From: a virus
Length of the DNA stretch: 31,152 nt
Virus genome (UHGV): UHGV-1981267
Strand: one strand, 5' to 3'
Within the stretch, counting starts at the first letter, position 1, and every line of letters begins with the position of its first letter. Made by a program: the position numbers and the translations under genes. The notes under the pieces are model-generated. The model had not been told where the DNA came from and did no database searches. It worked only from the letters and a program-made list of their open reading frames with translations. Positions 3,001 through 20,292 of this stretch are shown here, piece after piece.

Positions 3001-3253
3001 AGAGCATACTGATATTTACTCCTCATGCCGTCTGATAGTGCGGAAAAACGGTGCTGAAATTTATAACCGTACCGCGCTGGATAATACGCTGATTTACAGT
3101 GGCGTTATTGATATGCCTGCCGGTCACGGTCACATGACACTGGAGTTTTCGGTGTCAGCATGGCTGGTAAATGGCTGGTATCCCACAGCAAGTATCAGCG
3201 ATTTGCTGGTTGTGGTGATGAAGAAAGCCACTGCAGGCATCACGATTAGCTGA
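1..3253 (+). CDS. J: Tail tip host-specificity protein (lambda J-like), 5' end cut by window edge
   Basis: Track ORF 11..3253 is open to the window edge. Sits directly upstream of lom and stf as in lambda. Size and context fit J. Confidence 0.85.
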
Positions 3254-3272
3254 ATTTTATAACCCAGATACG

Positions 3273-3297
3273 GGCACCAGAAATGGTGCCTTTTTTA
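3273..3297 (+). terminator. Intrinsic terminator after J
   Basis: Stem GGCACC / GGTGCC with loop AGAAAT, followed by a run of six T. Confidence 0.6.
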
Positions 3298-3320
3298 TTG
3301 CAGAAAAGCGAGAGGTAATT

Positions 3321-3920
3321 ATGCGTAAATTATGTGCTGTTATTCTGTCCGCAGTAGTCTGGCTGGTTGCCGCTGGTACGCCAGCGAACGCAGCAGAGCA
3401 TCAGTCCACACTAAGCGCCGGGTATCTTCAGACCCATACTGATATGCCAGGCAGTGATGACCTGAAGGGCATTAACGTGAAATACCGTTATGAATTTACG
3501 GACACGCTGGGGCTGGTGACGTCATTCAGTTATGCCAATGCCAAAGATGAGCAAAAAACGCATTACAGCGATACCCGCTGGCATGAAGATTCAGTGCGTA
3601 ACCGCTGGTTCAGCATGATGGCGGGGCCATCTGTACGCGTGAATGAATGGTTCAGTGCTTATGCGATGGCAGGTGTGGCTTACAGCCGTGTTTCGACGTT
3701 CTCCGGGGATTATCTCCGCGTAACTGACAACAAGGGGAAAACGCACGATGTGCTGACCGGAAGTGATGACGATCGCCACAGCAACACGTCTCTGGCGTGG
3801 GGAGCTGGCGTGCAGTTTAACCCGACCGAATCCGTGGCCATTGATATTGCTTATGAAGGCTCCGGCAGTGGCGACTGGCGCACTGACGGTTTCATCGTGG
3901 GTGTCGGTTATAAGTTCTGA
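3321..3920 (+). CDS. lom: Lom-like outer membrane protein (Ail/Lom family)
   Basis: 199 aa with signal peptide. Near-colinear with lambda Lom as I recall it (EHQSTLSAGYL..., C-terminal DGFIVGVGYKF). Same position as in lambda. Confidence 0.9.
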   Translation: MRKLCAVILSAVVWLVAAGTPANAAEHQSTLSAGYLQTHTDMPGSDDLKGINVKYRYEFTDTLGLVTSFSYANAKDEQKTHYSDTRWHEDSVRNRWFSMMAGPSVRVNEWFSAYAMAGVAYSRVSTFSGDYLRVTDNKGKTHDVLTGSDDDRHSNTSLAWGAGVQFNPTESVAIDIAYEGSGSGDWRTDGFIVGVGYKF

Positions 3921-3946
3921 TTAGCCAGGTAACACAGTGTTATGAC

Positions 3947-3973
3947 AGCCCGCCGGTTCAGGCGGGCTTTTTT
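3947..3973 (+). terminator. Intrinsic terminator after lom
   Basis: Stem AGCCCGCC / GGCGGGCT with loop GGTTCA, followed by a T-run. Confidence 0.65.
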
Positions 3974-3978
3974 GTGGA

Positions 3979-6363
3979 GTGGATATGGCAGCAGTAAAAA
4001 TCTCAGGTGTGCTGAAAGATGGTGCGGGAAAACCAATACAGAACTGCACTATTCAACTGAAGGCAAAGCGTAACAGCACCACGGTACTGGTGAACACGGT
4101 GGCCTCTGAAAATCCGGATGAAGCCGGGCGTTACAGCATGGACGTTGAGTATGGTCAGTACAGCGTCATCCTGTGGATTGAGGGTTCTCAGCCATCACAT
4201 GTTGGGACCATTACCGTCTATGAAGGTTCCAGTCCGGGGACGCTGAATGATTTTCTCGGTGCCATGACGGAAGATGATGTCATGCCGGAGGCATTGCGCC
4301 GTTTTCAGGCAATGGTGGAAGAAGCGGCACGCAACGCCGAAGCCGCCTCTCAGAGCGCAGCGGCGGCAAAGAAATCCGAAACTGCAGCGGCATCATCGAA
4401 GAACGCGGCGAAAACCTCAGAAACGAATGCAGCTAATAGTGCACAGGCGGCAGCGACCTCAAAGACTGCATCGGCAAACTCCGCGACAGCAGCCAAAAAA
4501 TCAGAAACCAACGCGAAAAATAGCGAGACAGCCGCAAAGACGAGCGAAACCAACGCAAAGTCCAGCCAGACGGCAGCGAAAACCAGCGAAACGAATGCCA
4601 AAGCCAGTGAAACTGCGGCGAAAAACAGCCAGGATGCAGCGGCCCAAAGCGAGAGTGCCGCAGCTGGTTCTGCAAGTGCGGCGGCTTCTTCTGCCACTGC
4701 ATCAGCCAACAGTCAAAAAGCTGCAAAAACCAGCGAAACTAACGCAAAGTCCAGCCAGACGGCAGCGAAGACCAGCGAAACGAATGCCAAAGCCAGCGAA
4801 ACTGCGGCGAAAAACAGTCAGGATGCAGCAGCCCAAAGCGAGAGTGCCGCAGCCAGTTCTGCAAGCGCGGCGGCTGCTTCTGCCACTGCATCAGCCAACA
4901 GTCAAAAAGCAGCAAAAACCAGTGAAACCAACGCAAAGGTGAGCGAAACAGCGGCTGCGAACTCAGCGAAAGCATCGGCAGCAAGCCAGACGGCAGCTAA
5001 AGCAAGCGAAGATGCAGCCAGAGAGTACGCAAGCCAGGCTGCGGAGCCGTATAAATATGTCTTACAGCCGCTGCCTGATGTGTGGATACCATTTAACGAT
5101 TCACTGGATATGATTACGGGCTTTTCGCCATCTTATAAAAAGATTGTTATTGGTGACGACGAAATAACGATGCCTGGTGACAAGGTGGTTAAGTTTAAAC
5201 GCGCATCAAAAGCAACTTACATTAATAAATCGGGTGTGCTGACAGAGGCTACCATTGACGAGCCACGATTTGAACGTGATGGCCTGCTTATTGAGGGGCA
5301 AAGAACGAACTTCTTCCCGAACAGTACAGACCCTTCGAAGTGGAATAAGTCAACTTCACTGGACGTTACAGAAACAGGCACAGATAGTTTCGGTTTTAAT
5401 TATGGCCGGTTTGTCGTACAGGATTCGATTGTTGGTACAAGTAAAGCGCATACCATTATCGGACTGTATTCGAGTACCGGAGGGGTTGATACTTCAGGGG
5501 ACGAAAAGTATGTAACTATATCCTGTCGGGTAAAAAGTGAAGTTGATAATATCGACGTTCGTATTTTATTTGAACATTATGATGGGGAGGTAAGGACATC
5601 AATAGGAACAGCAAGCCTGAACCTTACCACCCGCATAATTAGCAAGACAGGTCAGACAAGCCGTGTTACAGCAAGGTCTGTTAAGGATGATGCAACTGGC
5701 TGGATATTTTTTGAGGCTACATTAAAAGCAGATACAACAGAAAATACGGTTGGTGGTTTCGTCCAGTATTCTCCGGATACAGGTCAGATGGTGGCATCAG
5801 GGGATTGTCTCGATGTAACCACTCCCCAGATTGAGGCTGGTACAGGCGCATCATCTTTTATTGTTACGGGGGCTGCACCGGTAACGCGGGCAAGCGATAT
5901 AGTTACAGTCCCAATTAAGAATAATCTTTATAATCTACCTTTTACGGTTCTTTGTGAGGTACATAAGAACTGGTATAAAACGCCAAATGCAGCACCGCGT
6001 GTTTTTGATACCGGCGGTTATCAAACCGGAGCGGCTATTATTCTTGGCTTCGGTCGTTCAACAGATTACGACGGATTTCCTTATTGCGATATTGGTGGGG
6101 CTAACAGGCGGATAAACGAAAATGCATCGCTTGAAAAAATGGTTATGGGGATGCGTGTAAAGTCAGATCAGTCTACATGCGCAGTAAGTAACGGGCGTAT
6201 ATCCAGCGAAACAAAAACCACATGGTCCTGTATTCAGAACTCCGCAATTATCCGTATTGGAGGCCAGACTACAGCCGGTTTACGCCATTTATTTGGTCAT
6301 GTCAGGAATTTCAGAATATGGCACAAAGCATTGACTGATGCTCAGGTGGGGGAGTTAATCTAA
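3979..6363 (+). CDS. stf: Side tail fibre protein, mosaic: lambda Stf-like N-terminus, Ala/Ser/Thr-rich repeat shaft, unrelated C-terminal domain
   Basis: N-terminus MAVKISGVLKDGAGKPIQNCTIQLKAKRNSTT... closely matches recalled lambda Stf. Centre has KTSETNAK-type repeats. C-terminal ~400 aa is unlike lambda Stf. Confidence 0.85.
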   Translation: MDMAAVKISGVLKDGAGKPIQNCTIQLKAKRNSTTVLVNTVASENPDEAGRYSMDVEYGQYSVILWIEGSQPSHVGTITVYEGSSPGTLNDFLGAMTEDDVMPEALRRFQAMVEEAARNAEAASQSAAAAKKSETAAASSKNAAKTSETNAANSAQAAATSKTASANSATAAKKSETNAKNSETAAKTSETNAKSSQTAAKTSETNAKASETAAKNSQDAAAQSESAAAGSASAAASSATASANSQKAAKTSETNAKSSQTAAKTSETNAKASETAAKNSQDAAAQSESAAASSASAAAASATASANSQKAAKTSETNAKVSETAAANSAKASAASQTAAKASEDAAREYASQAAEPYKYVLQPLPDVWIPFNDSLDMITGFSPSYKKIVIGDDEITMPGDKVVKFKRASKATYINKSGVLTEATIDEPRFERDGLLIEGQRTNFFPNSTDPSKWNKSTSLDVTETGTDSFGFNYGRFVVQDSIVGTSKAHTIIGLYSSTGGVDTSGDEKYVTISCRVKSEVDNIDVRILFEHYDGEVRTSIGTASLNLTTRIISKTGQTSRVTARSVKDDATGWIFFEATLKADTTENTVGGFVQYSPDTGQMVASGDCLDVTTPQIEAGTGASSFIVTGAAPVTRASDIVTVPIKNNLYNLPFTVLCEVHKNWYKTPNAAPRVFDTGGYQTGAAIILGFGRSTDYDGFPYCDIGGANRRINENASLEKMVMGMRVKSDQSTCAVSNGRISSETKTTWSCIQNSAIIRIGGQTTAGLRHLFGHVRNFRIWHKALTDAQVGELI
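4552..4945 (+). repeat. In-frame tandem duplication, 189-bp unit x2 plus partial third copy, inside stf
   Basis: Unit 4552..4740 and unit 4741..4929 are near-identical by eye (63-aa repeat KSSQTAAKTSETNAKASETAAKNSQDAAAQSESAAA...), with a partial copy following. Confidence 0.8.
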
Positions 6364-6644
6364 TGAAAGATTTAACACTCAAATTTGTCGACAGGGCCGA
6401 CTTTTCGGCCTTTATGGAGAGCATTGGCTATTATGATGACGAGTCGATGCAGGATGATATTCTTATTGACGTGATAGGTAATGTGTACAAAGAAACCGGA
6501 GAACTTACTGAAGATGGCGAGCCGGCATGTGTTAAGGAGGACGGATATTTTGTAAGCGTGCGCATCATTAATGATGCAAAAAAATCGTCAATATTCGATA
6601 AATACGCGATTGTTGTTGAGCATCAACTTCGTGGCTGGATGTGA
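6363..6644 (+). CDS. Hypothetical acidic protein coupled to stf (start overlaps stf stop, TAATG)
   Basis: 93-aa ORF. Overlapping stop/start suggests co-translation with stf. No motif recognised. Confidence 0.45.
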   Translation: MKDLTLKFVDRADFSAFMESIGYYDDESMQDDILIDVIGNVYKETGELTEDGEPACVKEDGYFVSVRIINDAKKSSIFDKYAIVVEHQLRGWM

Positions 6645-6653
6645 GGGAGACAA

Positions 6654-7358
6654 ATGGCTACATCGACAGTAATTCCTGATGACATCAAAACGCTAAAGGG
6701 AGATGTCAGTAAAGCCAAGGAAGATATTTCCTCAATTAACAGAAAAGTATCAACGCTTCAGACTGATATGACCAGTGCAAAGCAGGATATCAGCTCCAGA
6801 TACACAAAAACTGAAGTTGATAATAAGCTGAAAAACAAACTGGAAGTGAACGCTCTGGAAAGTGGTCGTTATGGCGGAGATTTTTACCCGCTGACTGGCC
6901 GTGAAGCGTTTTATTTATGGGGATTGGGCACAACTACAGCGGCGGCAAATCTTTATCTTAATCCTGACCCTGCAATTTCGTCTGTGCTGCGGTCAACATC
7001 GTCTATCCGCTATAAACATTCAGTAGAGACGATAGATTCAGAGCACGCCGATCTCATTTTCAGGATGCGCCCTGTGTGGTACAGGTCGCAATGCGAAAAT
7101 GACAGGCGTGACTGGGGATTCTACGGATTGATTGCCGAGGAAGTAGGAGAAATTGCCCCTCAGTTTGTACACTGGCGACCAGCTAACGAAGATGATGCAC
7201 CGGAAGCTATTTCCAGCAATGGCCTTGTTGCCGAAGGTGTAATGTACGAACGTCTGGTTGTTCCACTGATTCACCATATCCAGAAGCTGACTGAAAGAGT
7301 TGATGAACTTGAGTCAGAATTAAAGTTGTTATCCGTTTCCCGAAGCGATATCGGATAA
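6654..7358 (+). CDS. Short fibre-like protein with C-terminal intramolecular-chaperone (peptidase S74-like) domain
   Basis: Motifs resembling the fibre/endosialidase chaperone domain: SSIRYKHSVETID, RPVWY, GFYGLIAEEVGEIAP, and a C-terminal coiled coil ending ELESEL. SD GGAG upstream. Confidence 0.55.
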   Translation: MATSTVIPDDIKTLKGDVSKAKEDISSINRKVSTLQTDMTSAKQDISSRYTKTEVDNKLKNKLEVNALESGRYGGDFYPLTGREAFYLWGLGTTTAAANLYLNPDPAISSVLRSTSSIRYKHSVETIDSEHADLIFRMRPVWYRSQCENDRRDWGFYGLIAEEVGEIAPQFVHWRPANEDDAPEAISSNGLVAEGVMYERLVVPLIHHIQKLTERVDELESELKLLSVSRSDIG

Positions 7359-7368
7359 AGGAGGCGTA

Positions 7369-7662
7369 ATGGATATAACACCTTTCCTTCATGCACTTTG
7401 TGCTGTGGCTGCGCAGGTACTGGTTGGTCTTTTTACCGGAAACTGGGCTTACGGGGCGATAGCTGGTTGTACGTTCTTCATTGCGCGTGAACATACCCAG
7501 GCAGAATATCGCTGGATTGAAATGTTCGGGCATGGCAAGCGAATGAATATGCCGTGGTGGGGCGGTTTTGATCCGCGCGCGTGGGATGTGGCAAGCCTTA
7601 TGGATTTTGCTGTACCGATGGTCGCGTGTCTGCTGGTCTGGCTGTTGGTTTATCGTGGGTGA
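7369..7662 (+). CDS. Small membrane protein (two predicted TM segments), unknown function
   Basis: 97-aa ORF with SD AAGGAGG 6 nt upstream. Hydrophobic N- and C-terminal segments. Confidence 0.5.
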   Translation: MDITPFLHALCAVAAQVLVGLFTGNWAYGAIAGCTFFIAREHTQAEYRWIEMFGHGKRMNMPWWGGFDPRAWDVASLMDFAVPMVACLLVWLLVYRG

Positions 7663-7797
7663 AAAAAGGTGAGCTGTATATGCAACGGAGGAAGAAACCC
7701 CGTTGCTGGAAGCCTGGAAAAAGTATCGGGTGTTGTTGAATCGTGTTGATACATCACTATCTCCAGATATCGAGTGGCCAAGTCAACCATAAATCAA

Positions 7798-7826
7798 TAT
7801 CCCCTGCGATGCAGGGGATATTTCTT
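7798..7826. terminator. Bidirectional hairpin between convergent genes
   Basis: Perfect 10-bp stem TATCCCCTGC / GCAGGGGATA with 3-nt loop. T-rich on plus side (TTTCTT). Sits between the plus-strand membrane-protein gene and the sopB 3' end. Confidence 0.5.
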
Positions 7827-8790
7827 AATTATCAGTAGATTGTTCCTCTAGTAACAACTCAATTCTGCTTAGTATTTCTTTAGATATTTTTCGGCTATCA
7901 ATTTTTATAGTTACAAAATTACCTTTATATCTAGCCGTGATCCCTTCCCCATATTTTTTCTCGTCTTTTGTTTTTTCCTCGTCGCCAACTAGAACAGAGT
8001 CAGATAATATTTGTATAATCCGTGAAGCTTCTAAATCCTCGCCGTTTTTTTTAATTGCCAGAAGATGATGAGCAGCATTGCTCATGGCAGTCATGTTTTT
8101 TTTGTAGACCTTAAACAAAGAATCTCCAGCACGAGCTGACAGTTCTCCTGGATGATTGAAGATAGCTAATATATCTTTTGGTAGACCAGCTGTATTAATA
8201 CAGCGAGTGATAATATTTCTGTCTATATTTTCAGCCTCGGCTAATGCTTTAACGTTACCATCAAAGTCATTTAGCTTGCGTAAGTATCTCTTTCCTCTTT
8301 CGTATGCACTAATAGGCCTATAATCGTTACCAATTTGGGATAACCAATGCATCTGTTCATCGTCGAGATCACCTATTAAGACGCGATAGTCACATCCTGT
8401 TAATATCGCTGCTTTTCTTCTACGTGAGCCGTCAGCGACTTCAACGACTCCAGACACTTTTCTGGCGAAAGCTGGATTTTGTTGTCCAGACGTTAGAAAA
8501 GATGGGATTAAATCGGCTAGAGAGGATTCATTTAATAAATCTTGATCGCGTTCATTACCTAGCCATACCATTGTTGCCATTTCAACTTTATCTGCGGGAA
8601 TTGTCTCTAACTTAAAGTTAACATTACGTCCGCATACTGGCAAAGTTATGCTGTTACCGGTTAATGAACTCAGTTGACGTTTTAAATCACCAACCATAGG
8701 TGATACGGGCTGATGTTCAGGGGCATGATGATTATTACTCATAATGCGATTAATATCTGGAGCATTTTTTAGAAGAGAGCGCTGTTTCAT
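7825..8790 (-). CDS. sopB: Partition protein SopB (ParB family)
   Basis: 321 aa. Blocks match recalled F SopB (ITLPVCGR, GNERDQ, IPSFL-GQQ-PAF, ADGSRRRKAA, GNDYRP-SAYERG). Start overlaps sopA stop. Confidence 0.9.
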   Translation of the reverse strand: MKQRSLLKNAPDINRIMSNNHHAPEHQPVSPMVGDLKRQLSSLTGNSITLPVCGRNVNFKLETIPADKVEMATMVWLGNERDQDLLNESSLADLIPSFLTSGQQNPAFARKVSGVVEVADGSRRRKAAILTGCDYRVLIGDLDDEQMHWLSQIGNDYRPISAYERGKRYLRKLNDFDGNVKALAEAENIDRNIITRCINTAGLPKDILAIFNHPGELSARAGDSLFKVYKKNMTAMSNAAHHLLAIKKNGEDLEASRIIQILSDSVLVGDEEKTKDEKKYGEGITARYKGNFVTIKIDSRKISKEILSRIELLLEEQSTDN

Positions 8791-9956
8791 TATTCGTTCT
8801 CCCAGCGAGGTTTTATTAGATCATCAAAAATTTCTCGGCAAACAGGGTCCCATATAGAAACAGCATTTCTCCATGCATTCAATGTTGAACGTTGGTTTGC
8901 TGCTTGTTCAAATACTGTTCTCATTTTTATCTGGCCTTTACCTACTTCATCGGTAACGCGTACAACCTGACGTAATACCATTGATCCCCATGTATTTCTT
9001 ATTTGTTCTTCCATCCATCGTGATTGATTCCCTGTAGTGAGACTATATTTAGTCAGAAGTAAGCGAACGGTTGGCTCAAATCCACCTAGGTCAACGCTTT
9101 CCAATAGATCGAGAAGCATTGTGAAAAACTGTAGAACAGAAGCGTAATCAAATAATTCTGCAGGTGTAGCAACAACAATAACGTCAGCGGCACAAACAAC
9201 GTTAATGGTTCCTGTACCGAGGTTCGGAGCACTATCTATAACGATAACATCGTAGTTATCCCAAACTGATTCAATAGCTGCGCGCAGCATAAGGTGTGGA
9301 GGATGAGGCAATTTACCCTGAGCATGATATTGCATGAGATCTGTTTCTATACGATGTAAAGCTAGGCAGCTAGGGATAATGTCTAGCCCAGGCCAACATG
9401 TTGGCTTTATAGCATATTCAGCGTTATCGCGTTCTCCTAAGTAAAATGGCAGTAAAGTATCCTCGGCATGGATATGTAAATCAGGAACATAACCGTGATA
9501 CATAGAGGCCGTGCCTTGAGGATCGTTACCTTCAACCAAAAGAACACGATGACCTTGTAATGCTAACCATTGAGCTTGATGTACCGCAGACGATGTTTTA
9601 TAAACGCCGCCTTTGTGTGACATAACGGCAAGCACAACAGGGTTTTTATCTTGTGGTCGTTGGTTTGGGTTGCCAAAAACTGCTCGCATACTGTTGATTT
9701 GATCTATGGTATAACCAGCACGACGTTCAATTCTTCCTCTCATTTCAAAGTCAGGTGCAGGTAAACGCCCGCTCTTCTCAGCATCTCTAATTGCTTGAGG
9801 AGTTACACCAATTAAATCTGCTACTTCAGTTATACCCCATCGGCGGGTGATACGCCGAGCTTCAGGACTATCATCACCGAATTGAGCGATAGCAATTGCT
9901 TGGGTCATTTCTTGACCTCTCGTAACACAATCTTGCAATAACTTTTTCAAAGACAT
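8790..9956 (-). CDS. sopA: Partition ATPase SopA (ParA family)
   Basis: 388 aa with deviant Walker A (KGGVYKTS). N-terminal HTH region. Same length as F SopA. Confidence 0.92.
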   Translation of the reverse strand: MSLKKLLQDCVTRGQEMTQAIAIAQFGDDSPEARRITRRWGITEVADLIGVTPQAIRDAEKSGRLPAPDFEMRGRIERRAGYTIDQINSMRAVFGNPNQRPQDKNPVVLAVMSHKGGVYKTSSAVHQAQWLALQGHRVLLVEGNDPQGTASMYHGYVPDLHIHAEDTLLPFYLGERDNAEYAIKPTCWPGLDIIPSCLALHRIETDLMQYHAQGKLPHPPHLMLRAAIESVWDNYDVIVIDSAPNLGTGTINVVCAADVIVVATPAELFDYASVLQFFTMLLDLLESVDLGGFEPTVRLLLTKYSLTTGNQSRWMEEQIRNTWGSMVLRQVVRVTDEVGKGQIKMRTVFEQAANQRSTLNAWRNAVSIWDPVCREIFDDLIKPRWENE

Positions 9957-9977
9957 ACTGTCATCTCCAGCTTGTAA

Positions 9978-10055
9978 CTTTGCTTAATAATTAAATCTTT
10001 GCTTATTTCTAGCAAATTTGCATGAAAAAGGCAAAGCAAAACGAAAAACGCAAAG
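9978..10055 (-). promoter_or_regulatory. sop promoter/operator with CTTTGC hexamer repeats
   Basis: CTTTGC at 9978 and 9997; inverted GCAAAG at 10031 and 10050. F sopAB operator uses CTTTGC repeats bound by SopA. Confidence 0.55.
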
Positions 10056-10246
10056 GGGAATATTTGAGCTAAATCATCTTTTGTTCCCCTCCCGAAATGC
10101 ATAAAACGAACAACGATATAATCATAACTAATTGATATTTATTGTCTTTTTAAAAGAAAGGAAATCATGTAAAACTAGGGAAACATGATAAGAATCATCA
10201 ATGAGATACGTTTTCTCTATTAGTTCTCCCAATCTTACCAATACAA

Positions 10247-10390
10247 GAACATAAACAAAGAACATAAAAATAAAGTAATGATACAAACACAATAAAGAAC
10301 ATAAATAAAGAATTATAACCAATGCTAAATAAATCAGTACACAATATGAGAACATTACACCAAATGAGAACATTAATCAAGAACATAACG
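10247..10390 (+). repeat. Array of six to seven direct GAACAT(A/T)A motifs flanking telRL
   Basis: Copies at 10247, 10260, 10297, 10350, 10368, 10381 (and 10393 within the telRL arm), all same orientation, irregular spacing, very AT-rich. Confidence 0.5.
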
Positions 10391-10392
10391 AA

Positions 10393-10434
10393 ACATAATT
10401 GCCCATTATACGCGCGTATAATGGGGAATTATGT
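10393..10434. other. telRL: Telomere resolution site (telRL-like palindrome with telO core)
   Basis: 42-bp palindrome ACATAATTGCCCATTATACGC|GCGTATAATGGGGAATTATGT with one mismatch. The central 22 bp CCATTATACGCGCGTATAATGG matches my recollection of N15 telO. Immediately upstream of telN. Confidence 0.8.
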
Positions 10435-10604
10435 GCTGATTTTCAGAACAAAGTCAAGGAACAAATTTTAACGTTCCGATATTGTGTTTTTATTTATTAT
10501 CCGTTATTGTGTTCTGTTAGTTTGTGCCTAAGTTAACGCGTTATTAGTTATATTATTCTCAAATTGTGTTACGATAATCCGAGCGGATAATCAGGAGAGG
10601 AAAG

Positions 10605-12512
10605 ATGAGCAAAGTAAAAATCGGTGAATTAATAAACTCACTTGTTAGCGATGTTGAGTCAATAGATAACTCTGACCGTCCTCAAGGGGAGAAAACAAAA
10701 AAAATAAAGGCTGTTGCATTAAAATTTAAAAATGCATTATTTAATGACAAGCGAAAGTTTAGGGGGAAAGGATTAGAAAAAAGAATTACAGCCAACACAT
10801 TCAATGCCTATATGAGCAGGGCCAGAAAACGGTTTGATGATAAACTTCATCATAGCTTTGAAAAAAATATACATCGCCTATCTGAAAAGTATCCTTTATA
10901 TAATGAGGAGCTATTGTCATGGCTTTCTCTACCTGCTGCCGATATTCGCCAGAGAATGTCAGCTTTACAGGCAAAATTAAAATTAATTCTCCCTCTATCA
11001 GAAGATTTATCTAATATCAGAATTGGCGATAACAAAAGTCATAACAAGTTATTGAAATTATCAAATAAATATAAAGAGTGGCAATTCGCCATTTCTGATT
11101 TAACTAGCGATAACTGGAAAGATAAGCGCGATTATTTATATAAATTACTACAGCAAGGATCTGCCTTACTTGAGGAGTTGAATCAGCTAAAAGTTAACCA
11201 TGAGATTCTCTATCATCTTCAACTAAGCCCTGCCGAACGTGCATCTATCCAGCAACGATGGGCGGACGTTCTGCACAATAAAAAACGTAACGTGGTGGTC
11301 ATTGATTACCCTAAATATATGCAAGCTATTTACGATATTATAAATAGCCCTGCTACATTAAATAATCTAAACACTCGTTCAGGTATGGCTCCTTTGGCAT
11401 TTGCACTTGCTGCATTGTCAGGAAGACGAATGATTGAGATTATGTATCAAGGTACATTTACTGTTTCTGGTAAGTATACCGTTGATTTTTTAGGCCAAGC
11501 TAAAAAAAGAACTTCTGATGATATAACCAGAAAAATATATACATTATGCGAAGCAAAAACATTTGTTTATTTAATAAATGTACTTCGCTCATGCCCAGCA
11601 GCATCTGATTTTGATGATGTCGTTAAAGGTTATGGAGATAACGACACACGCTCTGAAAACGGACGTATTAATGCCATATTAGCAAAGGCTTTTAACCCGT
11701 GGGTTAAATCATTTTTCAAAGATGACCGCCGTGTTTATAAAGATAGTCGTGCTATTTATGCCCGTATTGCGTATGAAATGTTTTTCCGCGTAGATCCTCG
11801 TTGGAAAAACGTAGATGAAGATGTTTTCTTTATGGAAATTTTAGGCCATGACGATGAAAACACTCAATTACACTATAAGCAATTCAAGCTGGCCAACTTC
11901 TCAAAGACATGGAGGCCAAATACTGGAAACGAAAATACCAGGCTGGAAGCATTGCAGCAGCTTGATGACGAAATGCCTGGATTCGCCAGAGGAGATGCCG
12001 GGGTTCGTCTGCATAACACAGTTAAGCAGCTGGTAGAGCAGGACCCCTCTATAAAAATCACGAACAGCACTCTAAGAGCGTTCAAATTTAGCCCAACAAT
12101 GATTAGTCGATACCTAGAATTTGCTGCTGATGCTCTGGGGCAATTTGTTGGCGAAAACGGACAATGGCAACTGAAAATAGATACTCCAGAAATCGTTATG
12201 CCTGACGAAGAAGAACTGGAAGCAATACCTGAACTGGCGGATGAATTATCAGAGGATGACGATCTGGATGACGACGAAATTGAGATAGAGGAAGAGGAGG
12301 AGGAAGAGGAAGAGGAAGAGAGCGTAGAAGAACAGCAACCGCCTGCACCTTCTTCGCCTGTATCTAAGCCGGTATTTAAGCCGGTGAGAAATATTGGTGA
12401 TGGCTCATACGTTGTTGAGTTTCATTATAATGGCCAGAATTATGCGTGGTCCGGCAGTGCAAACAGCCCCATGTCAGCAATGCAGTTAGCATGGCTGACA
12501 TATTTCGGTTAA
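10605..12512 (+). CDS. telN: Protelomerase (TelN-like telomere resolvase)
   Basis: 635 aa. N-terminus MSKVKIGELIN... matches recalled N15 TelN. Strong SD AGGAGAGG. Adjacent to the tel site. C-terminus carries an acidic poly-Glu tract. Confidence 0.9.
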   Translation: MSKVKIGELINSLVSDVESIDNSDRPQGEKTKKIKAVALKFKNALFNDKRKFRGKGLEKRITANTFNAYMSRARKRFDDKLHHSFEKNIHRLSEKYPLYNEELLSWLSLPAADIRQRMSALQAKLKLILPLSEDLSNIRIGDNKSHNKLLKLSNKYKEWQFAISDLTSDNWKDKRDYLYKLLQQGSALLEELNQLKVNHEILYHLQLSPAERASIQQRWADVLHNKKRNVVVIDYPKYMQAIYDIINSPATLNNLNTRSGMAPLAFALAALSGRRMIEIMYQGTFTVSGKYTVDFLGQAKKRTSDDITRKIYTLCEAKTFVYLINVLRSCPAASDFDDVVKGYGDNDTRSENGRINAILAKAFNPWVKSFFKDDRRVYKDSRAIYARIAYEMFFRVDPRWKNVDEDVFFMEILGHDDENTQLHYKQFKLANFSKTWRPNTGNENTRLEALQQLDDEMPGFARGDAGVRLHNTVKQLVEQDPSIKITNSTLRAFKFSPTMISRYLEFAADALGQFVGENGQWQLKIDTPEIVMPDEEELEAIPELADELSEDDDLDDDEIEIEEEEEEEEEEESVEEQQPPAPSSPVSKPVFKPVRNIGDGSYVVEFHYNGQNYAWSGSANSPMSAMQLAWLTYFG

Positions 12513-12683: not shown

Positions 12684-13457
12684 CTATTTATTGGTGATTT
12701 CTGCTGGCTTTAGCTGCGCGGATAACTGTTCAAGTTTTTGAACTGCCAGTTCAAAATGCGCGGGTAACGCCTTTTCCAGATCAGAGTTAATATCGGTGAT
12801 GGGTAAATCACCACACGACATACTCCGCCTACCCCCACGAACAACATCACGCAACAACTCTCGTTCATACGTGCGCATGTTCCCCAATGCCGACTCAGCA
12901 GCCGTCAAAATCCGGCGCAGTTCTGCCGTAATTGCTGGCAAATCATCAACCGTTATGGGGTTCGGGGATGGATTACGACACGCCCGACGCAAAGCTAACC
13001 ATACACCGCTAATCCAGGCATTTCGGTACTGAAAACTTTGTGCTATATCGTTAATCAGCCCTCGCAGATACTCTTTCTGCCTCCAGTTCAACGGCTCCGC
13101 TGCTCGCATTGGCTCAGGCTCGATGTAAACGTACTCTCCATTTTTGCGAATAGAGGGCAAGACTTCGTTCGTTACCCATTTGCGAAACCGCCAAGCTGTT
13201 GTGCCTTGCTTCACCGCGTCACGGCAGCGGAGAATGAGCGTGTAAAGACCTGATTCACTGATGATATTGGCTTGACCTTGACGGCCTATGTTAAACATAG
13301 ATCGCTCATCTTCATCTAATCGAGCGATAGCTTGTGTGACATTCTGGATGCTTAAAGCATTGCAAATATCATTCGCCACAAACCACGGATCGCCGTTAAT
13401 CATCACTACACGTACCTGATGCTCTTCCTGAAAGGAAAAGACTGCTAACGCGCTCAT
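12684..13457 (-). CDS. Antirepressor (Bro-N / AntA-like N-terminal domain)
   Basis: 257 aa. N-terminal FSFQ...VRVVMINGDPWFVANDICNAL is a typical Bro-N motif. Last gene of an immA-like operon. Confidence 0.8.
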   Translation of the reverse strand: MSALAVFSFQEEHQVRVVMINGDPWFVANDICNALSIQNVTQAIARLDEDERSMFNIGRQGQANIISESGLYTLILRCRDAVKQGTTAWRFRKWVTNEVLPSIRKNGEYVYIEPEPMRAAEPLNWRQKEYLRGLINDIAQSFQYRNAWISGVWLALRRACRNPSPNPITVDDLPAITAELRRILTAAESALGNMRTYERELLRDVVRGGRRSMSCGDLPITDINSDLEKALPAHFELAVQKLEQLSAQLKPAEITNK

Positions 13458-13687
13458 TCAGCCTCCTTACCGTGCAGCAATTGCGACGAGAGCGATGCTG
13501 AATATCCCTGTGCTTCGTGTGTTAACTCACACGCAATTTGAAGGAGTTTCCCTGCTTCTGAGAGATAAATCGACGCCTCACAGCTGGAGACTGTCCGATG
13601 GGCTGATGATACGAGCGCATAGACCTGAGCCAGACGTTCATCCAACGATTCCAGCAGGCCAACAGTGTTCATTTTTACCTGATTCAT
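13454..13687 (-). CDS. Hypothetical protein of the anti-immunity operon
   Basis: 77-aa ORF. Stop overlaps the antirepressor start; start overlaps the stop of the upstream small ORF. Confidence 0.55.
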   Translation of the reverse strand: MNQVKMNTVGLLESLDERLAQVYALVSSAHRTVSSCEASIYLSEAGKLLQIACELTHEAQGYSASLSSQLLHGKEAE

Positions 13688-13848
13688 GCAGCCACCTCGC
13701 GCACCGGAATACGGGCAGACAATACCAGGACAAACCGGCTGGCGAACTGGCGACGAGCTTCCCGTTCAGATGACGCGATGGTGGAAAGATGATGGATGTG
13801 TGACTTTTTGTCTGTGCGAACGACTGCCGCAAATTTGAATTTGAACAT
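13684..13848 (-). CDS. Small ORF (54 aa), possibly Icd-like cell-division inhibitor
   Basis: Hand-translated MFKFKFAAVVRTDKKSHIHHLSTIASSEREARRQFASRFVLVLSARIPVREVAA. SD GGAGTG upstream. ATGA overlap with next gene. Below the track's length cutoff. Confidence 0.4.
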   Translation of the reverse strand: MFKFKFAAVVRTDKKSHIHHLSTIASSEREARRQFASRFVLVLSARIPVREVAA

Positions 13849-13869
13849 GGTATGCACTCCGTTTAATTG

Positions 13870-14070
13870 GTCGTGCTACCACCAGAGTTCTCACGCTCTT
13901 GAATGGTGGTAGCCCAAGCGGGGGTGAGAATACCGGCAAACGAAGAAACCGGCCTGACCGAAGTCAGCCCCGCCTGAGCCACCATAAATCGGATATGCGC
14001 AGGTATATACACACAAAAAAACACGCTGGCGCGTGTTGTGCGCTTCGTTTATCCGGGTTCTCACGCCCGG
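13870..14070 (-). ncRNA. Structured leader / candidate small regulatory RNA of the immA operon (P4 CI / N15 CA RNA-like)
   Basis: On the transcribed strand: GUGAGAAC (from 14057..14064), then UUCUCACCCC (13921..13930), then GUGAGAAC (13887..13894) inside a 10-bp stem (13875..13913). The middle element is complementary to both others. Confidence 0.4.
14012..14035 (-). terminator. Intrinsic terminator inside the immA leader
   Basis: On the minus strand: CACGC-GCCA-GCGUG hairpin followed by UUUUUUUGUGU. Confidence 0.5.
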
Positions 14071-14145
14071 CTGCGGAATTTGCCGCAGCGGAGTAACTTT
14101 ACCGTCAAAACGACGCACACGTCAATAATTTGCAAAGACATTTTA

Positions 14146-14165
14146 CCCCGTGACCAGTCACGGGG
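14146..14165. promoter_or_regulatory. 20-bp palindrome CCCCGTGAC-CA-GTCACGGGG between the upstream gene cluster and the immA promoter region
   Basis: Near-perfect inverted repeat. Could be an operator or a terminator for the gene ending at 14227. Candidate TTGACG -35 elements lie just downstream on the minus strand (about 14100..14130). Confidence 0.4.
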
Positions 14166-14226
14166 ACAGGTGTTTTTATAGTTTGCTTGAACGAGTGATC
14201 AGAAGTTGATCGTTAATCAAAGGCCA

Positions 14227-14514
14227 TTACGGATTAAGAGAGTGGAAATACCTAACTAACTTACCGGCATCATCACATTTTTCTTTATCTTCTTCCTTAA
14301 CATAGCCGCGACAGAAGGCTGAATAAAATTTCGCATTTTCAGAAGCAAAAGCAGCCGTCGAAAGGAGCAGTTCTTTGCATGATTCTTTTGATGCAGCATC
14401 GGGATTATTTTTACATGCAAGCTCCGCTGATGAGTTAATAACAGAAATGCTATCTTCCTGGGCATAAACCGCAGCAGAAAAGGCAAAACATAAAACCAAA
14501 ATAAAACTCTTCAC
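14227..14514 (-). CDS. Small secreted cysteine-containing protein, unknown function
   Basis: GTG start at 14514 preceded by AGGAG. Predicted signal peptide MKSFILVLCFAFSAAVYA. Four Cys in the mature part. Confidence 0.55.
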   Translation of the reverse strand: MKSFILVLCFAFSAAVYAQEDSISVINSSAELACKNNPDAASKESCKELLLSTAAFASENAKFYSAFCRGYVKEEDKEKCDDAGKLVRYFHSLNP

Positions 14515-14541
14515 TTTATCTCCTGTAACAGTTATCACAAC

Positions 14542-14937
14542 TCAATCAACTTTTTTAGCATCAGCCATACGCTTCAACCAGTAATCAACAATCGGCTGCT
14601 CATCCACAGAATGTTTACCAGGTATAACTCGCCAGCTATCTTGCGAAAATCTGCCGTACTTACGCGGGAATAGGCCTTTCTTTATCTCCCGCCATGTACT
14701 AGGAAAACCATCCACAAAAGTACCAATTAACAGGAGAGGGACAAAAATCAGAGCTACAAACCATCGTGCAAGAAAGTGTTCAACAACAACATTTTCACCG
14801 TTGTAGTAATACGCATACGCATCCAATATGCGAATTTTCCTTACCTTAAAAATAGCCTTATGCTGAGAACGACTTAACTTGATACGAATGTATCCCTTAT
14901 CCAAAGGGGATTCGTATTTGTATGATTGAACAGCCAT
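14542..14937 (-). CDS. Hypothetical protein with one hydrophobic segment
   Basis: Track ORF 14542..14949. ATG at 14937 lies 2 nt after the upstream gene stop (coupled). Confidence 0.45.
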   Translation of the reverse strand: MAVQSYKYESPLDKGYIRIKLSRSQHKAIFKVRKIRILDAYAYYYNGENVVVEHFLARWFVALIFVPLLLIGTFVDGFPSTWREIKKGLFPRKYGRFSQDSWRVIPGKHSVDEQPIVDYWLKRMADAKKVD

Positions 14938-14939
14938 TT

Positions 14940-15266
14940 TTAACCCCACTCACCATCAGCAAACAAAGCGTTATACTCTGACAATGGTAGATGGTTGCCC
15001 TCGATGTAGAGATTCAGTTCATACTTCGTCTCCGGGTTTTCCTTGTCGGCTCGTTCCCAACGCTCAGCAGCCTCACGCGCCAATAATTCCACTGCTTTCA
15101 GATAATCCTCCGTACGGAACCAGCCAAAGATAAGGCCACGATCTGTTACAGCCCAGGCAACCTTTTTTTCTTCCTCCTGGATAGCCTTAATGCGTCGATC
15201 GCATTCATCCCGGCAAAACTGCAGCTGACGGTAATCAAGTTTGTCCAAAAATGCAGTAGTAGACAT
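14940..15266 (-). CDS. Hypothetical protein
   Basis: 108-aa ORF, same strand and tightly packed with neighbours downstream of repA. Confidence 0.45.
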   Translation of the reverse strand: MSTTAFLDKLDYRQLQFCRDECDRRIKAIQEEEKKVAWAVTDRGLIFGWFRTEDYLKAVELLAREAAERWERADKENPETKYELNLYIEGNHLPLSEYNALFADGEWG

Positions 15267-15270
15267 ATTT

Positions 15271-15462
15271 TTACTCCCCGTTCACCGAAAAATCACGATA
15301 GAAACGTTTCCACATACGATAAGTCTGCGCGAGTTGTTCACCACGAAACATCGCCTTCCTGGCCTTCATGTTTTCCTTGTGAGACTTTCGATCTATGAAC
15401 CAAAACCATTGCTGGAACACACAAAGCAAGAGACACAAAGATAATATCCACTGATTACCCAT
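15271..15462 (-). CDS. Possible small membrane protein
   Basis: Internal Met of track ORF 15271..15579. Hydrophobic segment WILSLCLLLCVFQQWFWFI. Overlaps repA stop by a few nt. Confidence 0.3.
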   Translation of the reverse strand: MGNQWILSLCLLLCVFQQWFWFIDRKSHKENMKARKAMFRGEQLAQTYRMWKRFYRDFSVNGE

Positions 15463-19450: not shown

Positions 19451-19504
19451 TTTTTAGCCATTCCATGCGAATTATGTTTTTTCGGGTTGAAAAAATCCGC
19501 AGGA

Positions 19505-19601
19505 GCAGCCACAATAAACGCATCTTGAATTGACGGAATCCGTCGCGTTGTTGTGGCTGCTTCCTGAAAAGGACCCGAGTTTGCCGACTCGGGTTTTTTT
19601 T
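19505..19601 (+). other. Stem-loop plus strong plus-strand intrinsic terminator in the cB-repA intergenic region
   Basis: 10-bp inverted arms GCAGCCACAA / TTGTGGCTGC (19505..19514, 19551..19560) enclosing the palindrome GACGGAATCCGTC. Then stem CCCGAGT / ACTCGGG with an 8-T run (19574..19601). Confidence 0.45.
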
Positions 19602-19695
19602 CGTCTTTTTTCTGCTGCTGTAACCTGAGTCAACCCACAGAACATATGCCCTGCATTAAACCAGATTTACAGTAAACAATAAACCCCATATTAAG

Positions 19696-20292
19696 TCATC
19701 TACCCTCAACCATGAATGATTTGATCGTTCCGACTATTTGGTGAACAAATTCAAGATCGCTTTTCCTGAAGATGGCGCGTTGTGAGTTTGTTCCATCCAG
19801 ATAGTAATTTTCATCATCAAAACGGGCCAGGCGCTGGATAGTGATATTTCCTGCAGTATCACGAACCAGAACATCCTCGCCGGGGACCAGTTCCAGCGCA
19901 GAATCGACCAGGAGAAAATCGCCTGGCTGATAGTTTCCCTGCGTAAGATTGCTGATAGTTAACGCATACACAGTATTGCGCTGGCTGATGAATGGCAGGA
20001 ATCGCTCAGTATTTGGAACCTGTCCCGGCTTCCACTCTTCATCCGGCCCACTTTCAGTTGTGCCAATAACAGGAATGCGATCAGGGTCATATTCTGTCCC
20101 ATATAGCACCCAATGCACTGGCTTGCGTAAGCACTTAGCCAGGGCAATACCTATCTCCAGTGACGGCATTACGTCGCCACGTTCTAAGTTTTGGACGCCT
20201 GCTATAGAGATATCGACAGCCTCAGCAACTTCTCGCAACGTCAGCTTCATCTCTAAACGGCGTGCTTTCAGTCGTTCGCCTCGTGTTTTCAT
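19696..20292 (-). CDS. cB: Prophage repressor CB (HTH plus LexA/S24-like C-terminal domain)
   Basis: 198 aa. N-terminal HTH (LTLREVAEAVDISIAGVQNLERG). C-terminal domain typical of CI/LexA-type repressors. Divergent from cro. Confidence 0.88.
   Translation of the reverse strand: MKTRGERLKARRLEMKLTLREVAEAVDISIAGVQNLERGDVMPSLEIGIALAKCLRKPVHWVLYGTEYDPDRIPVIGTTESGPDEEWKPGQVPNTERFLPFISQRNTVYALTISNLTQGNYQPGDFLLVDSALELVPGEDVLVRDTAGNITIQRLARFDDENYYLDGTNSQRAIFRKSDLEFVHQIVGTIKSFMVEGR

What the first reader, a model, noticed from the sequence alone, without database searches (positions are those of the whole stretch)
3979..7358. Mosaic tail fibre locus: duplicated shaft repeat, non-lambda distal domain, and a separate chaperone-domain gene
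stf has a lambda-like N-terminus, a perfect-looking in-frame 189-bp tandem duplication (4552..4929), and a C-terminal part unlike lambda Stf. In place of lambda tfa there is a 93-aa coupled ORF and a 234-aa protein carrying what looks like a peptidase S74 intramolecular-chaperone domain as a stand-alone gene. This suggests host-range module exchange.
Basis: partly seen in the sequence, partly recalled or inferred. Interest (0 to 1): 0.4.

Follow-up and report, generated by a model that had tools for sequence, protein, structure and literature searches.

The report
Mosaic two-fibre side tail fibre locus
This is the side tail fibre operon of an N15-like E. coli plasmid-prophage, in which lambda's fibre tip and its helper gene have been replaced by a widely shared cassette: a sugar-binding-type tip, a small partner protein that always accompanies it, and probably a short, self-processing second fibre. 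It is a common, ordinary kind of host-range mosaic, and only its parts are uncharacterised.

Summary
The observation largely holds. stf (start probably ATG 3985, ends 6363) has a lambda-type N-terminus. It carries an in-frame 189-nt tandem duplication that is 94% identical, not perfect. Its distal part is unrelated to lambda Stf. ORF93 is translationally coupled to stf (TAATG). ORF234 passes Pfam Peptidase_S74.

New points:
- The distal 430 aa are an RcGTA head-spike-fibre domain followed by a pentraxin/LamG-like domain, which suggests a glycan-binding tip.
- stf-distal/ORF93/ORF234 is a conserved cassette. It also forms the lateral-fibre locus of T1-like Drexlerviridae.
- A 36-aa lambda-type tfa remnant (7682-7789) marks the replacement.
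- An ORF93-like gene follows the distal domain in all 63 IMG/VR loci with enough downstream sequence (one only as a remote homologue) and in 11 of 17 loci from other species. It is the constant partner.
- ORF234 is optional and exchangeable. Its first roughly 15-30 residues are shared by a 346-aa S74 protein and by a 340-aa gp37-like protein that has its own Tfa.

I therefore read ORF234 as a short accessory fibre (anchor, coiled coil, small tip, self-cleaving chaperone), not a detached chaperone for Stf. This is inferred, not shown.

One-copy and two-copy repeat alleles both exist. The duplication is old (dS 0.24) and is not an assembly artefact. Interest is modest.

The parts
3321..3920 (+). 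lom (Ail/Lom outer-membrane protein). It is the upstream neighbour, as in lambda.
   Evidence: Pfam Ail_Lom E 4e-127.
3947..3968 (+). Terminator-like GC hairpin followed by a T-run, between lom and stf.
   Evidence: Consensus scan only.
3985..6363 (+). stf, side tail fibre, 792 aa from ATG 3985. The mechanical ORF starts at GTG 3979, and residue numbers in this report count from 3979.
   Evidence: PHROG 1419 matches over full length, 793 positions.
3991..4380 (+). Stf N-terminal tail-attachment domain (phage_tail_N), lambda-like.
   Evidence: Pfam PF08400 E 9e-64, residues 5-134. 57% identity to lambda orf-401.
4315..5043 (+). Ala/Ser/Thr/Lys-rich shaft built of 7-aa (21-nt) repeats. A trimeric alpha-helical coiled coil is inferred.
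   Evidence: TRF periods 21, 42 and 189. Repeat families D1-D5. 21-residue layout.
4552..4740 (+). Copy 1 of the 189-nt (63-aa) higher-order shaft repeat.
4741..4929 (+). Copy 2 of the 189-nt repeat. It is 94% identical in nt and 97% in aa to copy 1.
   Evidence: One-copy alleles P0064, P0076 and P0102.
5068..6360 (+). Exchangeable distal module of Stf. It starts at the conserved PLPDVWIPFNDS junction and is always C-terminal in its family.
   Evidence: 2,092 cluster representatives at E<=1e-3, on varied N-terminal parts. Alignment A2.
5287..5892 (+). GTA head-spike-fibre-like domain (Stf residues 437-638). Glycan binding is likely.
   Evidence: NCBIfam NF048003, 69.2 bits against a cut-off of 36. 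Profile against PDB 6tb9 Rcc01080, E 7.7e-42.
5947..6357 (+). C-terminal pentraxin/LamG-like (ConA-like) jelly-roll domain, about Stf residues 657-793.
   Evidence: Profile A2 against PDB: 4qvs E 4.8e-6, C-reactive protein E 4e-4, botulinum toxin HCN ~5e-3. Weak Laminin_G_3 hit in the KarlJaspers homologue.
6363..6644 (+). ORF93, an acidic 10.7-kDa protein (pI 4.3) coupled to stf by TAATG. It is the constant partner of the distal module. Its fold and function are unknown.
   Evidence: PHROG 1361. Co-occurrence. No Pfam, PDB or Tfa similarity.
6654..6746 (+). ORF234 N-terminal anchor (MATSTVIPDDIKTLKGDVS...). Alternative second-fibre proteins share it.
   Evidence: PHROG 4563 and 19752 N-termini. 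Same start on the 346-aa protein of L044 and the 340-aa protein of L080. The homology breakpoint with L044 falls at window 6697.
6654..7358 (+). ORF234, a short fibre-like protein. Layout: anchor; helix/coiled coil (about residues 9-60); small conserved tip (61-115); S74 intramolecular chaperone (116-234). The predicted self-cleavage site is before Ser116 (codon 6999-7001). The catalytic partner Lys121 is at 7014-7016.
   Evidence: Pfam S74. S116 and K121 invariant in 32 homologues. AF2 model. Foldseek hits to ICA/IMC structures. T5-like fibre 8hqz. dN/dS 0.17-0.26.
7369..7662 (+). ORF97, a small hydrophobic protein with a strong AGGAGG ribosome-binding site. It is the last gene of the operon. 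It is present in all lambdoid versions of the locus but was not detected in the one Drexlerviridae locus tested.
   Evidence: PHROG 1443, unknown function. No hit in KarlJaspers.
7682..7789 (+). Remnant of a lambda-type tfa: 36 codons, 83% identical to Tfa residues 156-191, with no start codon.
   Evidence: tblastn E 3e-15. PGAP marks the same stretch as an incomplete tail fiber assembly protein in L001.
7796..7822 (.). 12-bp-stem hairpin between the fibre operon and the convergent sopB. It resembles a bidirectional terminator.
   Evidence: (I1).

Best explanation
The locus is a four-gene side-tail-fibre operon, stf-orf93-orf234-orf97. Recombination replaced the lambda-type receptor-binding end of stf, together with tfa, with a mobile cassette.

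Shown:
- Stf keeps lambda's tail-attachment domain and a heptad-repeat shaft. Shaft length varies between alleles in units of 7 and 63 residues.
- The distal 430 residues are a GTA-head-spike-fibre domain followed by a pentraxin/LamG-like domain.
- ORF93 accompanies this distal module wherever it occurs.
- ORF234 carries a complete S74 intramolecular-chaperone domain with the catalytic Ser-Lys pair.
- ORF234 shares its N-terminal segment with alternative proteins that have other distal parts.

Inferred:
- The Stf tip binds a surface polysaccharide (O-antigen, capsule or similar) for reversible first contact. The 63-aa duplication adds about 9 nm of reach.
- ORF93 is a dedicated assembly or docking partner of the lectin-like tip.
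- ORF234 trimerises from its C-terminal chaperone domain and cuts itself before Ser116. This leaves a 115-residue coiled-coil stub with a small conserved tip.
- That stub plugs by its N-terminal anchor into the Stf/ORF93 end (or elsewhere on the tail tip) as an optional, exchangeable second fibre.
For: Domains:
- phage_tail_N and S74.
- GTA_spike_fiber.
- Profile against PDB 6tb9 at E 7.7e-42, and pentraxin/LamG-like hits.
- The RcGTA head fibre is a single subunit that binds capsule polysaccharide (PMC7296036; PMC10218006).

Cassette:
- Drexlerviridae KarlJaspers, SLUR29, SECphi27 and Jahat all have fibre, a 92-aa gene and an S74 protein. Identities for KarlJaspers are 46%, 51% and 58%.

Replacement scar:
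- tfa remnant.
- Breakpoints at the stf stop codon, at codon ~15 of ORF234 and at the ORF97 start.

ORF93 linkage:
- tblastn found an ORF93-like gene in 62 of 63 IMG/VR loci with at least 1.1 kb downstream.
- In the 63rd locus, reading the ORFs and a profile search showed a remote homologue.
- It is also present in 11 of 17 loci from other species, including Aeromonas, Buttiauxella and Silvania, where the tip is about 30% identical.

ORF234 as a fibre:
- Absent from type C loci.
- Replaced in type B by a 346-aa protein with the same first ~31 aa and its own S74 (E 1e-13).
- Replaced in L080 by a 340-aa gp37-like protein followed by a Tfa.
- Every locus with a type I ORF93 has an anchor-bearing gene next to it. 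No other locus does.
- S116 and K121 are invariant.
- The model has a confident IMC fold that hits MyRF ICA, GA-1 and K1F chaperones.
- Purifying selection.
- In a solved phage, the S74 part and its C-terminal coiled coil are absent from the mature virion (10.1101/2024.10.28.620165).
Against: - No experiment or multimer model shows that ORF234 or ORF93 is in the virion, or where either would dock.
- ORF234's mature part would be unusually small (about 55 residues beyond the coiled coil). It is conserved rather than hypervariable, which is atypical for a host-range determinant.
- The perfect association between type I ORF93 and the anchor gene rests on few independent lineages (about four) and could be plain linkage.
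- The ORF93 model was unusable (pLDDT 50).
- Glycan binding by the Stf tip is inferred from homology only. The LamG-like assignment rests on weak profile hits.
- Database annotators (BASEL) call the ORF234 homologue a 'putative lateral tail fiber chaperone'.
Confidence: 0.55

Rival explanations
1. ORF234 is a trans-acting assembly chaperone for Stf. On this view it is a detached version of the intramolecular chaperone and the functional replacement of Tfa, and it is not part of the virion.
For: - It carries the S74 'chaperone of endosialidase' domain.
- It lies where tfa lies in lambda.
- GenBank annotators call its homologues a 'putative lateral tail fiber chaperone' or 'chaperone of endosialidase'.
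- Its mature part would be very small.
Against: - The same Stf tip (86% identical) occurs in many loci with no such gene (type C).
- The Stf tip is homologous to a domain that works as a single subunit in RcGTA. It is not the kind of triple beta-helix that S74 domains fold.
- The same N-terminal anchor heads a 346-aa protein with its own receptor-type middle part and S74. It also heads a gp37-like protein served by a separate Tfa. This pattern fits fibres rather than chaperones.
- Known S74 domains act in cis on the chain they are cut from (established for K1F endosialidase and T5 pb1; from my own knowledge).
Confidence: 0.2
2. ORF234 is a decaying leftover: the 3' end of a formerly longer S74-type fibre gene, cut off when the new tip and ORF93 were inserted. 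On this view it has no present function.
For: - The whole of ORF234 aligns to the C-terminal 238 positions of a 1,385-position PHROG family (phrog_3299). That family also matches the Stf shaft repeats.
- PGAP names some E. coli proteins 'prophage tail fiber N-terminal domain and S74 family'.
- A tfa remnant shows that leftovers persist in this locus.
Against: - Full-length, start-to-stop conservation at 55-58% identity between lambdoid prophages and lytic Drexlerviridae.
- Its own GGGAG ribosome-binding site.
- dN/dS of 0.17-0.26.
- The catalytic Ser and Lys, and 17 other positions, are invariant.
- Its N-terminus is also the N-terminus of other independent proteins.
Confidence: 0.07
3. ORF234 is a real short fibre that attaches on its own to the tail tip or baseplate, not to Stf or ORF93. 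ORF93 would then be only a folding chaperone of the lectin-like tip and would be absent from virions.
For: - ORF93-like genes persist in loci that have no second fibre, so ORF93's core role does not depend on ORF234.
- In DT57C the position of the second fibre, LtfB, is still uncertain even with cryo-EM (PMC10713586).
Against: - The cassette moves between lambdoid, P2-like-anchored and T1-like fibres as a unit. This is easier to explain if the docking site travels with it, on Stf's distal part or on ORF93, rather than lying on three different tail tips.
- Type I ORF93 and the anchor gene are strictly associated.
Confidence: 0.18

Closest known systems
Phage lambda (Ur-lambda) side tail fibre Stf with its assembly protein Tfa
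   Same: - Gene order J-lom-stf.
- N-terminal phage_tail_N attachment domain and Ala/Ser-rich repeat shaft (57% identity over 330 aa).
- A tfa 3' fragment is still present.
   Different: - The receptor-binding end (lambda orf-314, T4 gp37-like) and a functional Tfa are both absent.
- They are replaced by a GTA-spike/LamG-like tip, ORF93 and ORF234.
Lateral tail fibre locus of Drexlerviridae Tempevirinae (KarlJaspers/Bas06, SLUR29, SECphi27, Jahat_MG145)
   Same: - The same three genes in the same order and with the same coupling: fibre with this distal module, a 92-aa protein, and a 221-245-aa S74 protein with the MATVT.IP.DI..LK start.
- Identities to KarlJaspers are 46%, 51% and 58%.
   Different: - The fibre's N-terminal attachment part is different (T1-like).
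- ORF97 and the tfa remnant were not detected in KarlJaspers, the one locus tested.
- These are lytic phages.
- None of these genes has been characterised experimentally. BASEL only infers that the fibres bind O-antigen (PMC8594841).
RcGTA head spike fibre Rcc01080 (PDB 6tb9)
   Same: The Stf distal domain is homologous to it (NF048003, 69 bits; profile E 7.7e-42). The RcGTA protein binds capsular polysaccharide.
   Different: - In RcGTA it sits as one subunit on a pentameric capsid spike base.
- Here it ends a presumably trimeric tail fibre and is followed by an extra LamG/pentraxin-like domain.
T5 pb1 and DT57C LtfA/LtfB L-shaped tail fibres, and K1F endosialidase (C-terminal intramolecular chaperone, peptidase S74)
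   Same: - ORF234's residues 116-234 are an S74/IMC domain with the Ser-Lys pair.
- The family profile hits the DT57C fibre C-terminus (8hqz, E 1e-6).
- The model hits 3gud and 3gw6.
- DT57C offers a precedent for a branched fibre made of two proteins (PMC4728585, PMC10713586).
   Different: - ORF234 is tiny, with only 115 residues ahead of the cleavage site against about 900-1,260 in those fibres.
- Its pre-cleavage part is mostly coiled coil.
- Attachment to another fibre is inferred here, not shown.
Phage N15 (Ravinvirus) linear plasmid-prophage
   Same: The window's backbone matches: TelN 78%, SopA 93% and SopB 75% identity, plus a tel-like palindrome.
   Different: - N15's own fibre region (genes 22-26) is unrelated.
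- The window's J is lambda-like, only 32% identical to N15 gp21.
- N15 gp25 has no match in the window.

Membership tests
Lambda-type side tail fibre (Stf) | N-terminal phage_tail_N attachment domain | tested here: met
   PF08400 E 9e-64, residues 5-134. 57% identity to lambda orf-401.
Lambda-type side tail fibre (Stf) | gp37-like C-terminal receptor-binding region (lambda orf-314) that depends on Tfa | tested here: not met
   No BLASTP hit to orf-314 or Tfa. Only a 36-codon tfa remnant remains.
Peptidase S74 / intramolecular chaperone (ORF234) | Match to the family HMM above the curated threshold | tested here: met
   PF13884, 27.4 bits against a gathering score of 22, residues 116-172, covering the whole profile.
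Peptidase S74 / intramolecular chaperone (ORF234) | Catalytic Ser-Lys pair (S-x4-K) at the start of the domain | tested here: met
   S116 and K121 are invariant in 32 homologues of 27-95% identity. Residues confirmed in the window protein.
Peptidase S74 / intramolecular chaperone (ORF234) | IMC/ICA fold | tested here: met
   In the AF2 model, residues 120-234 have pLDDT 85-95. Foldseek hits: 7dc3 MyRF ICA E 8e-6, 3gud, 3gw6.
Peptidase S74 / intramolecular chaperone (ORF234) | Autoproteolytic release after trimer folding | not testable with these tools
   Needs protein expression, or a gel or mass spectrometry of virions.
GTA head spike fibre domain (NF048003), Stf distal part | Match to the family HMM above the curated threshold | tested here: met
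   69.2 bits against a cut-off of 36, Stf residues 437-638, profile positions 1-181 of 182. PDB 6tb9: E 9.7e-6 with the single sequence, 7.7e-42 with the profile.
GTA head spike fibre domain (NF048003), Stf distal part | Binds cell-surface polysaccharide | not testable with these tools
   Known for Rcc01080 only.
ConA-like lectin / LamG / pentraxin fold (Stf residues ~657-793) | Significant match to family models or structures | tested here: inconclusive
   Profile A2 against PDB: 4qvs E 4.8e-6, CRP E 4e-4. Pfam Laminin_G_3 is seen only in the KarlJaspers homologue and below threshold (21.4 bits against 27.6). No structure model was made.
Tail fibre assembly protein Tfa (candidate identity of ORF93) | Sequence or profile similarity to Tfa | tested here: not met
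   No BLASTP hit. hhalign probability 0.06%. No Pfam, NCBIfam or PDB match.
Branched two-protein lateral fibre (DT57C LtfA/LtfB type) | The second fibre protein lacks a tail-attachment domain and is carried by the first | not testable with these tools
   Only indirect support. A shared short anchor sits on exchangeable proteins, and it is strictly linked with type I ORF93.
N15-like linear plasmid-prophage (context of the window) | Protelomerase, tel site and SopAB partition genes | tested here: met
   TelN 78%, SopA 93% and SopB 75% identity to N15. A tel-like palindrome lies at about 10381-10488.

The most novel reading that the evidence does not exclude
The 93-aa protein defines an uncharacterised, widespread family that is the universal partner of GTA-spike/LamG-type fibre tips. 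One of its subtypes would serve as the socket for a plug-in second fibre recognised by a ~15-30-residue N-terminal anchor. Lambdoid, P2-like-anchored and T1-like phages would then share a branched, dual-specificity side fibre whose two receptor-binding ends can be swapped independently. ORF234 would be the minimal plug-in: coiled coil, about 55-residue tip and self-cleaving chaperone.
Probability: 0.35. Interest if true: 0.55.

Novelty: new variant of a known kind. Interest (0 to 1): 0.35.

Why it matters
Side and lateral fibres decide which surface glycans a phage can pass, and they are the parts swapped when phages or phage-derived delivery particles are retargeted. This cassette is very common. 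In the complete E. coli genomes searched, about a thousand carry this two-copy shaft variant, and the tip family has over 2,000 clusters. Yet none of its three proteins has been studied.

If ORF93 is needed for the tip, and ORF234-type genes are plug-in second fibres, then chimeric Stf designs must carry ORF93 along. They could also add a second specificity through a short anchor. The result also corrects a database label ('lateral tail fiber chaperone') that probably misdescribes a structural protein.

Otherwise the finding is an ordinary example of tail-fibre mosaicism.

Tried and rejected
- AlphaFold2 of ORF93 with 20 near-identical homologues gave pLDDT 50. I did not use that model for a fold search.
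- ORF93 has no match in Pfam, NCBIfam, PADLOC or PDB, whether searched as a single sequence or as a profile. It also does not match lambda Tfa by hhalign.
- I made no structure model of the Stf tip. Both prediction jobs went to ORF93 and ORF234, and the available homologues of the tip were at least 85% identical.
- An assembly artefact for the duplication is rejected.
- N15 itself as the source of the fibre genes is rejected.
- A defence-system role for ORF93, ORF234 or ORF97 found no support in PADLOC.
- Literature searches found no description of this cassette, of a stand-alone S74 gene in lambdoid phages, or of ORF93.
- The long ORFs on other frames and strands across 4274-4984 are by-products of the repeat composition.

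Full report
CONTEXT

The window is an N15-like linear plasmid-prophage. After the fibre genes come, on the minus strand, SopB (75% identical to N15) and SopA (93%). Then come a tel-like palindrome (about 10381-10488) and a protelomerase (78%). A near-identical linear E. coli plasmid is annotated the same way. The tail-tip region is not N15-like. J is only 32% identical to N15 gp21, N15 gp25 has no match, and the order J-lom-stf is that of lambda. The same lom-stf-orf93-orf234-orf97 block occurs at 98.5% identity in chromosomal lambdoid prophages integrated next to dusA.

CHECK OF THE OBSERVATION

stf
- The mechanical ORF is 3979-6363 (GTG). ATG 3985 behind a GGAG is the likelier start, and it is the one PGAP uses.
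- Residues 5-134 are Pfam phage_tail_N (E 9e-64).
- Residues 5-331 are 57% identical to lambda orf-401. Nothing matches lambda orf-314 or Tfa.

The tandem repeat
- It is real, in frame and at the stated coordinates, but it is not perfect. The two copies share 178 of 189 nt and 61 of 63 aa.
- Nine of the eleven differences are synonymous (dS 0.24, dN 0.014).
- The copies are therefore old, or were joined by unequal recombination between diverged alleles. Both are under purifying selection.
- In other loci the two copies are only 83-87% identical.
- In a spread sample of the 1,002 complete E. coli genomes that cover at least 80% of the 801-nt query, the first ~25 rows match it in one ungapped piece of 786-801 nt at 91-97% identity.
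- One-copy alleles that are otherwise nearly identical exist: P0064, 729 aa = 792 - 63, plus P0076 and P0102.
- The repeat is a higher-order unit of a 7-aa (21-nt) repeat that makes up the whole shaft. By inference this is an alpha-helical trimeric coiled coil, so one unit adds about 9 nm.

Downstream genes
- ORF93 starts on the last base of the stf stop codon (TAATG).
- ORF234 follows 9 nt later behind GGGAG.
- ORF97 follows 10 nt later behind AGGAGG.
- ORF234 passes Pfam Peptidase_S74 (27.4 bits against 22).

THE STF TIP

- NCBIfam places Stf residues 437-638 in the 'GTA_spike_fiber' domain (69 bits against a cut-off of 36).
- A profile of 50 cluster representatives hits the Rhodobacter capsulatus GTA head spike fibre Rcc01080 at E 7.7e-42.
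- The last ~135 residues of that profile hit pentraxins, an S-layer lectin-like domain and the lectin-like domain of botulinum toxins (E 5e-6 to 5e-3). This indicates a ConA-like jelly roll. A sub-threshold Laminin_G_3 hit in a homologue agrees.
- In RcGTA the head fibre is a single flexible subunit that binds the capsule polysaccharide.
- I therefore infer a lectin-like, glycan-binding tip.
- The ~430-residue module starting at PLPDVWIPF is a large family: 2,092 clusters at 50% identity with E<=1e-3. It is always C-terminal and sits on many different N-terminal parts.

THE CASSETTE AND ITS BORDERS

The lateral-fibre loci of four Drexlerviridae (KarlJaspers/Bas06, SLUR29, SECphi27, Jahat) have the same three genes in the same arrangement. 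KarlJaspers shows 46%, 51% and 58% identity for the fibre tip, ORF93 and ORF234.

Downstream of ORF97 the window keeps 36 codons of a lambda-type tfa (83% identical to Tfa 156-191) without a start. A hairpin terminator follows. This is a scar of the replacement.

DNA comparison with related loci puts the homology breaks at functional borders:
- Against type C loci, homology stops at the stf stop codon and resumes at the ORF97 start.
- Against type B loci, it runs to window 6697 (codon ~15 of ORF234) and resumes at ORF97.
- Against PhiR49_1, only the core of the tip (5275-6247) is swapped.

ORF93 VERSUS ORF234

Among 80 IMG/VR loci with this tip there are three designs:
- Type A, as in the window.
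- Type B, in which ORF234 is replaced by a 346-aa protein. It has the same first ~31 residues, a different ~190-residue middle part, and its own S74 domain (E 1e-13).
- Type C, with a 92-aa ORF93 relative (38% identical) followed directly by ORF97, and no second gene.

In a further locus (L080) the primary fibre has a tail-collar-type N-terminus. ORF92 is followed by a 340-aa protein with the same anchor (MATVTTIPADITNLK) and a lambda/T4 gp37-like end. A 175-aa Tfa comes next.

Co-occurrence
- tblastn found an ORF93-like gene in 62 of 63 loci with enough downstream sequence. In the 63rd, reading the ORFs and a profile search showed a remote homologue.
- It is also present in 11 of 17 loci from other species (one genome per species). 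These include Aeromonas, Buttiauxella, Silvania, Leclercia and Atlantibacter, where the tip is about 30% identical.
- Anchor-bearing genes occur only, and always, next to 'type I' ORF93. The number of independent lineages behind this association is small.

ORF234 ITSELF

- In 32 homologues (27-95% identity) Ser116 and Lys121 are invariant. This is the S-x4-K pair of S74 domains.
- The family profile hits the C-terminus of the DT57C/T5-like L-shaped fibre (8hqz, E 1e-6).
- The AF2 model has a long helix at residues 9-60 and a low-confidence stretch at 63-115. Low confidence is expected for a segment that folds only as an intertwined trimer.
- Residues 120-234 form a confident domain (pLDDT 85-95). 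Its best structural matches are the MyRF ICA domain and the GA-1 and K1F intramolecular chaperones.
- dN/dS between prophage alleles is 0.17-0.26.
- In a solved phage, the S74 part and its trailing coiled coil are missing from the mature virion.

INTERPRETATION

The part that always travels with the new tip is ORF93: a small acidic protein (pI 4.3) of unknown fold and unrelated to Tfa.

ORF234 behaves like one of several interchangeable short fibres that share a docking peptide. It carries its own folding and cleavage device. It is probably not a chaperone for Stf, because Stf tips of the same kind do without it, and because the tip's homologue in RcGTA is a single subunit rather than a triple beta-helix.

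Where the anchor docks, and whether ORF93 is a chaperone, an adaptor or both, remain inferences. The closest functional precedent is the branched LtfA/LtfB fibre of DT57C.

NOVELTY

- The genes are abundant and already annotated generically: 'prophage tail fiber N-terminal domain-containing protein', 'phage head spike fiber domain-containing protein', 'tail fiber domain-containing protein', 'putative lateral tail fiber chaperone'.
- Mosaic fibre loci are a textbook phenomenon.
- I found no published description of the three-gene logic, of the ORF93 family, or of the shared anchor.
- I rate the finding a new variant of a known kind, of modest interest.

Noticed in passing
window 7825-12512 and about 10381-10488: The backbone is N15-like: SopB 75%, SopA 93% and protelomerase 78% identity to N15, plus a tel-like palindrome. 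The J-lom-stf block is lambda-like (J only 32% identical to N15 gp21). The phage is therefore a larger-scale hybrid of Ravinvirus and lambdoid modules.
   Followed up: partly
window 7682-7789: A 36-codon 3' remnant of a lambda-type tfa gene (83% identical to Tfa 156-191) without a start codon. The same remnant follows ORF97 in many related loci, and PGAP flags it as an incomplete tail fiber assembly protein.
   Followed up: yes
window 7369-7662: ORF97 is a small hydrophobic protein with a strong ribosome-binding site. Hydrophobic segments lie at about residues 1-27 and 71-97. It ends every lambdoid version of the locus (types A, B and C) but was not detected in the KarlJaspers locus. PHROG 1443, function unknown, no PADLOC hit. 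It could be a membrane-acting moron such as an exclusion protein.
   Followed up: partly
L044 5614-6654; L080 3961-4983 and 4985-5512: Alternative second-fibre genes share ORF234's N-terminal anchor. One is a 346-aa protein with its own S74 domain. The other is a 340-aa gp37-like protein followed by a 175-aa Tfa.
   Followed up: yes
L004 (KarlJaspers MZ501090) 5989-6666, and homologues in SECphi27 and Jahat_MG145: Database product names 'putative lateral tail fiber chaperone' and 'chaperone of endosialidase' are given to whole proteins. These proteins look like short fibres that carry an intramolecular chaperone, so the labels are probably misleading.
   Followed up: partly
L002 (plasmid NZ_CP104505.1), locus 9488-10654 and 11569-12401: The linear plasmid record lists sopA twice, with the same protein accession, in inverted orientation near one end. 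This may be an assembly that read through the hairpin telomere.
   Followed up: no
window 3947-3968: A terminator-like GC hairpin with a T-run lies between lom and stf, directly upstream of the stf ribosome-binding site. How stf is transcribed past it was not examined.
   Followed up: no
L045 and L046 (IMGVR_UViG_2724679539_000001, 3104-12423 and 13074-22393): One IMG/VR contig holds two copies of the whole fibre locus in inverted orientation. This is either a duplication or a mis-assembly.
   Followed up: no
window 4274-4984, other frames and minus strand: Several long ORFs (up to 222 aa) overlap the shaft repeats. They are by-products of the low-complexity GC-rich repeat and should not be called as genes.
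   Followed up: partly
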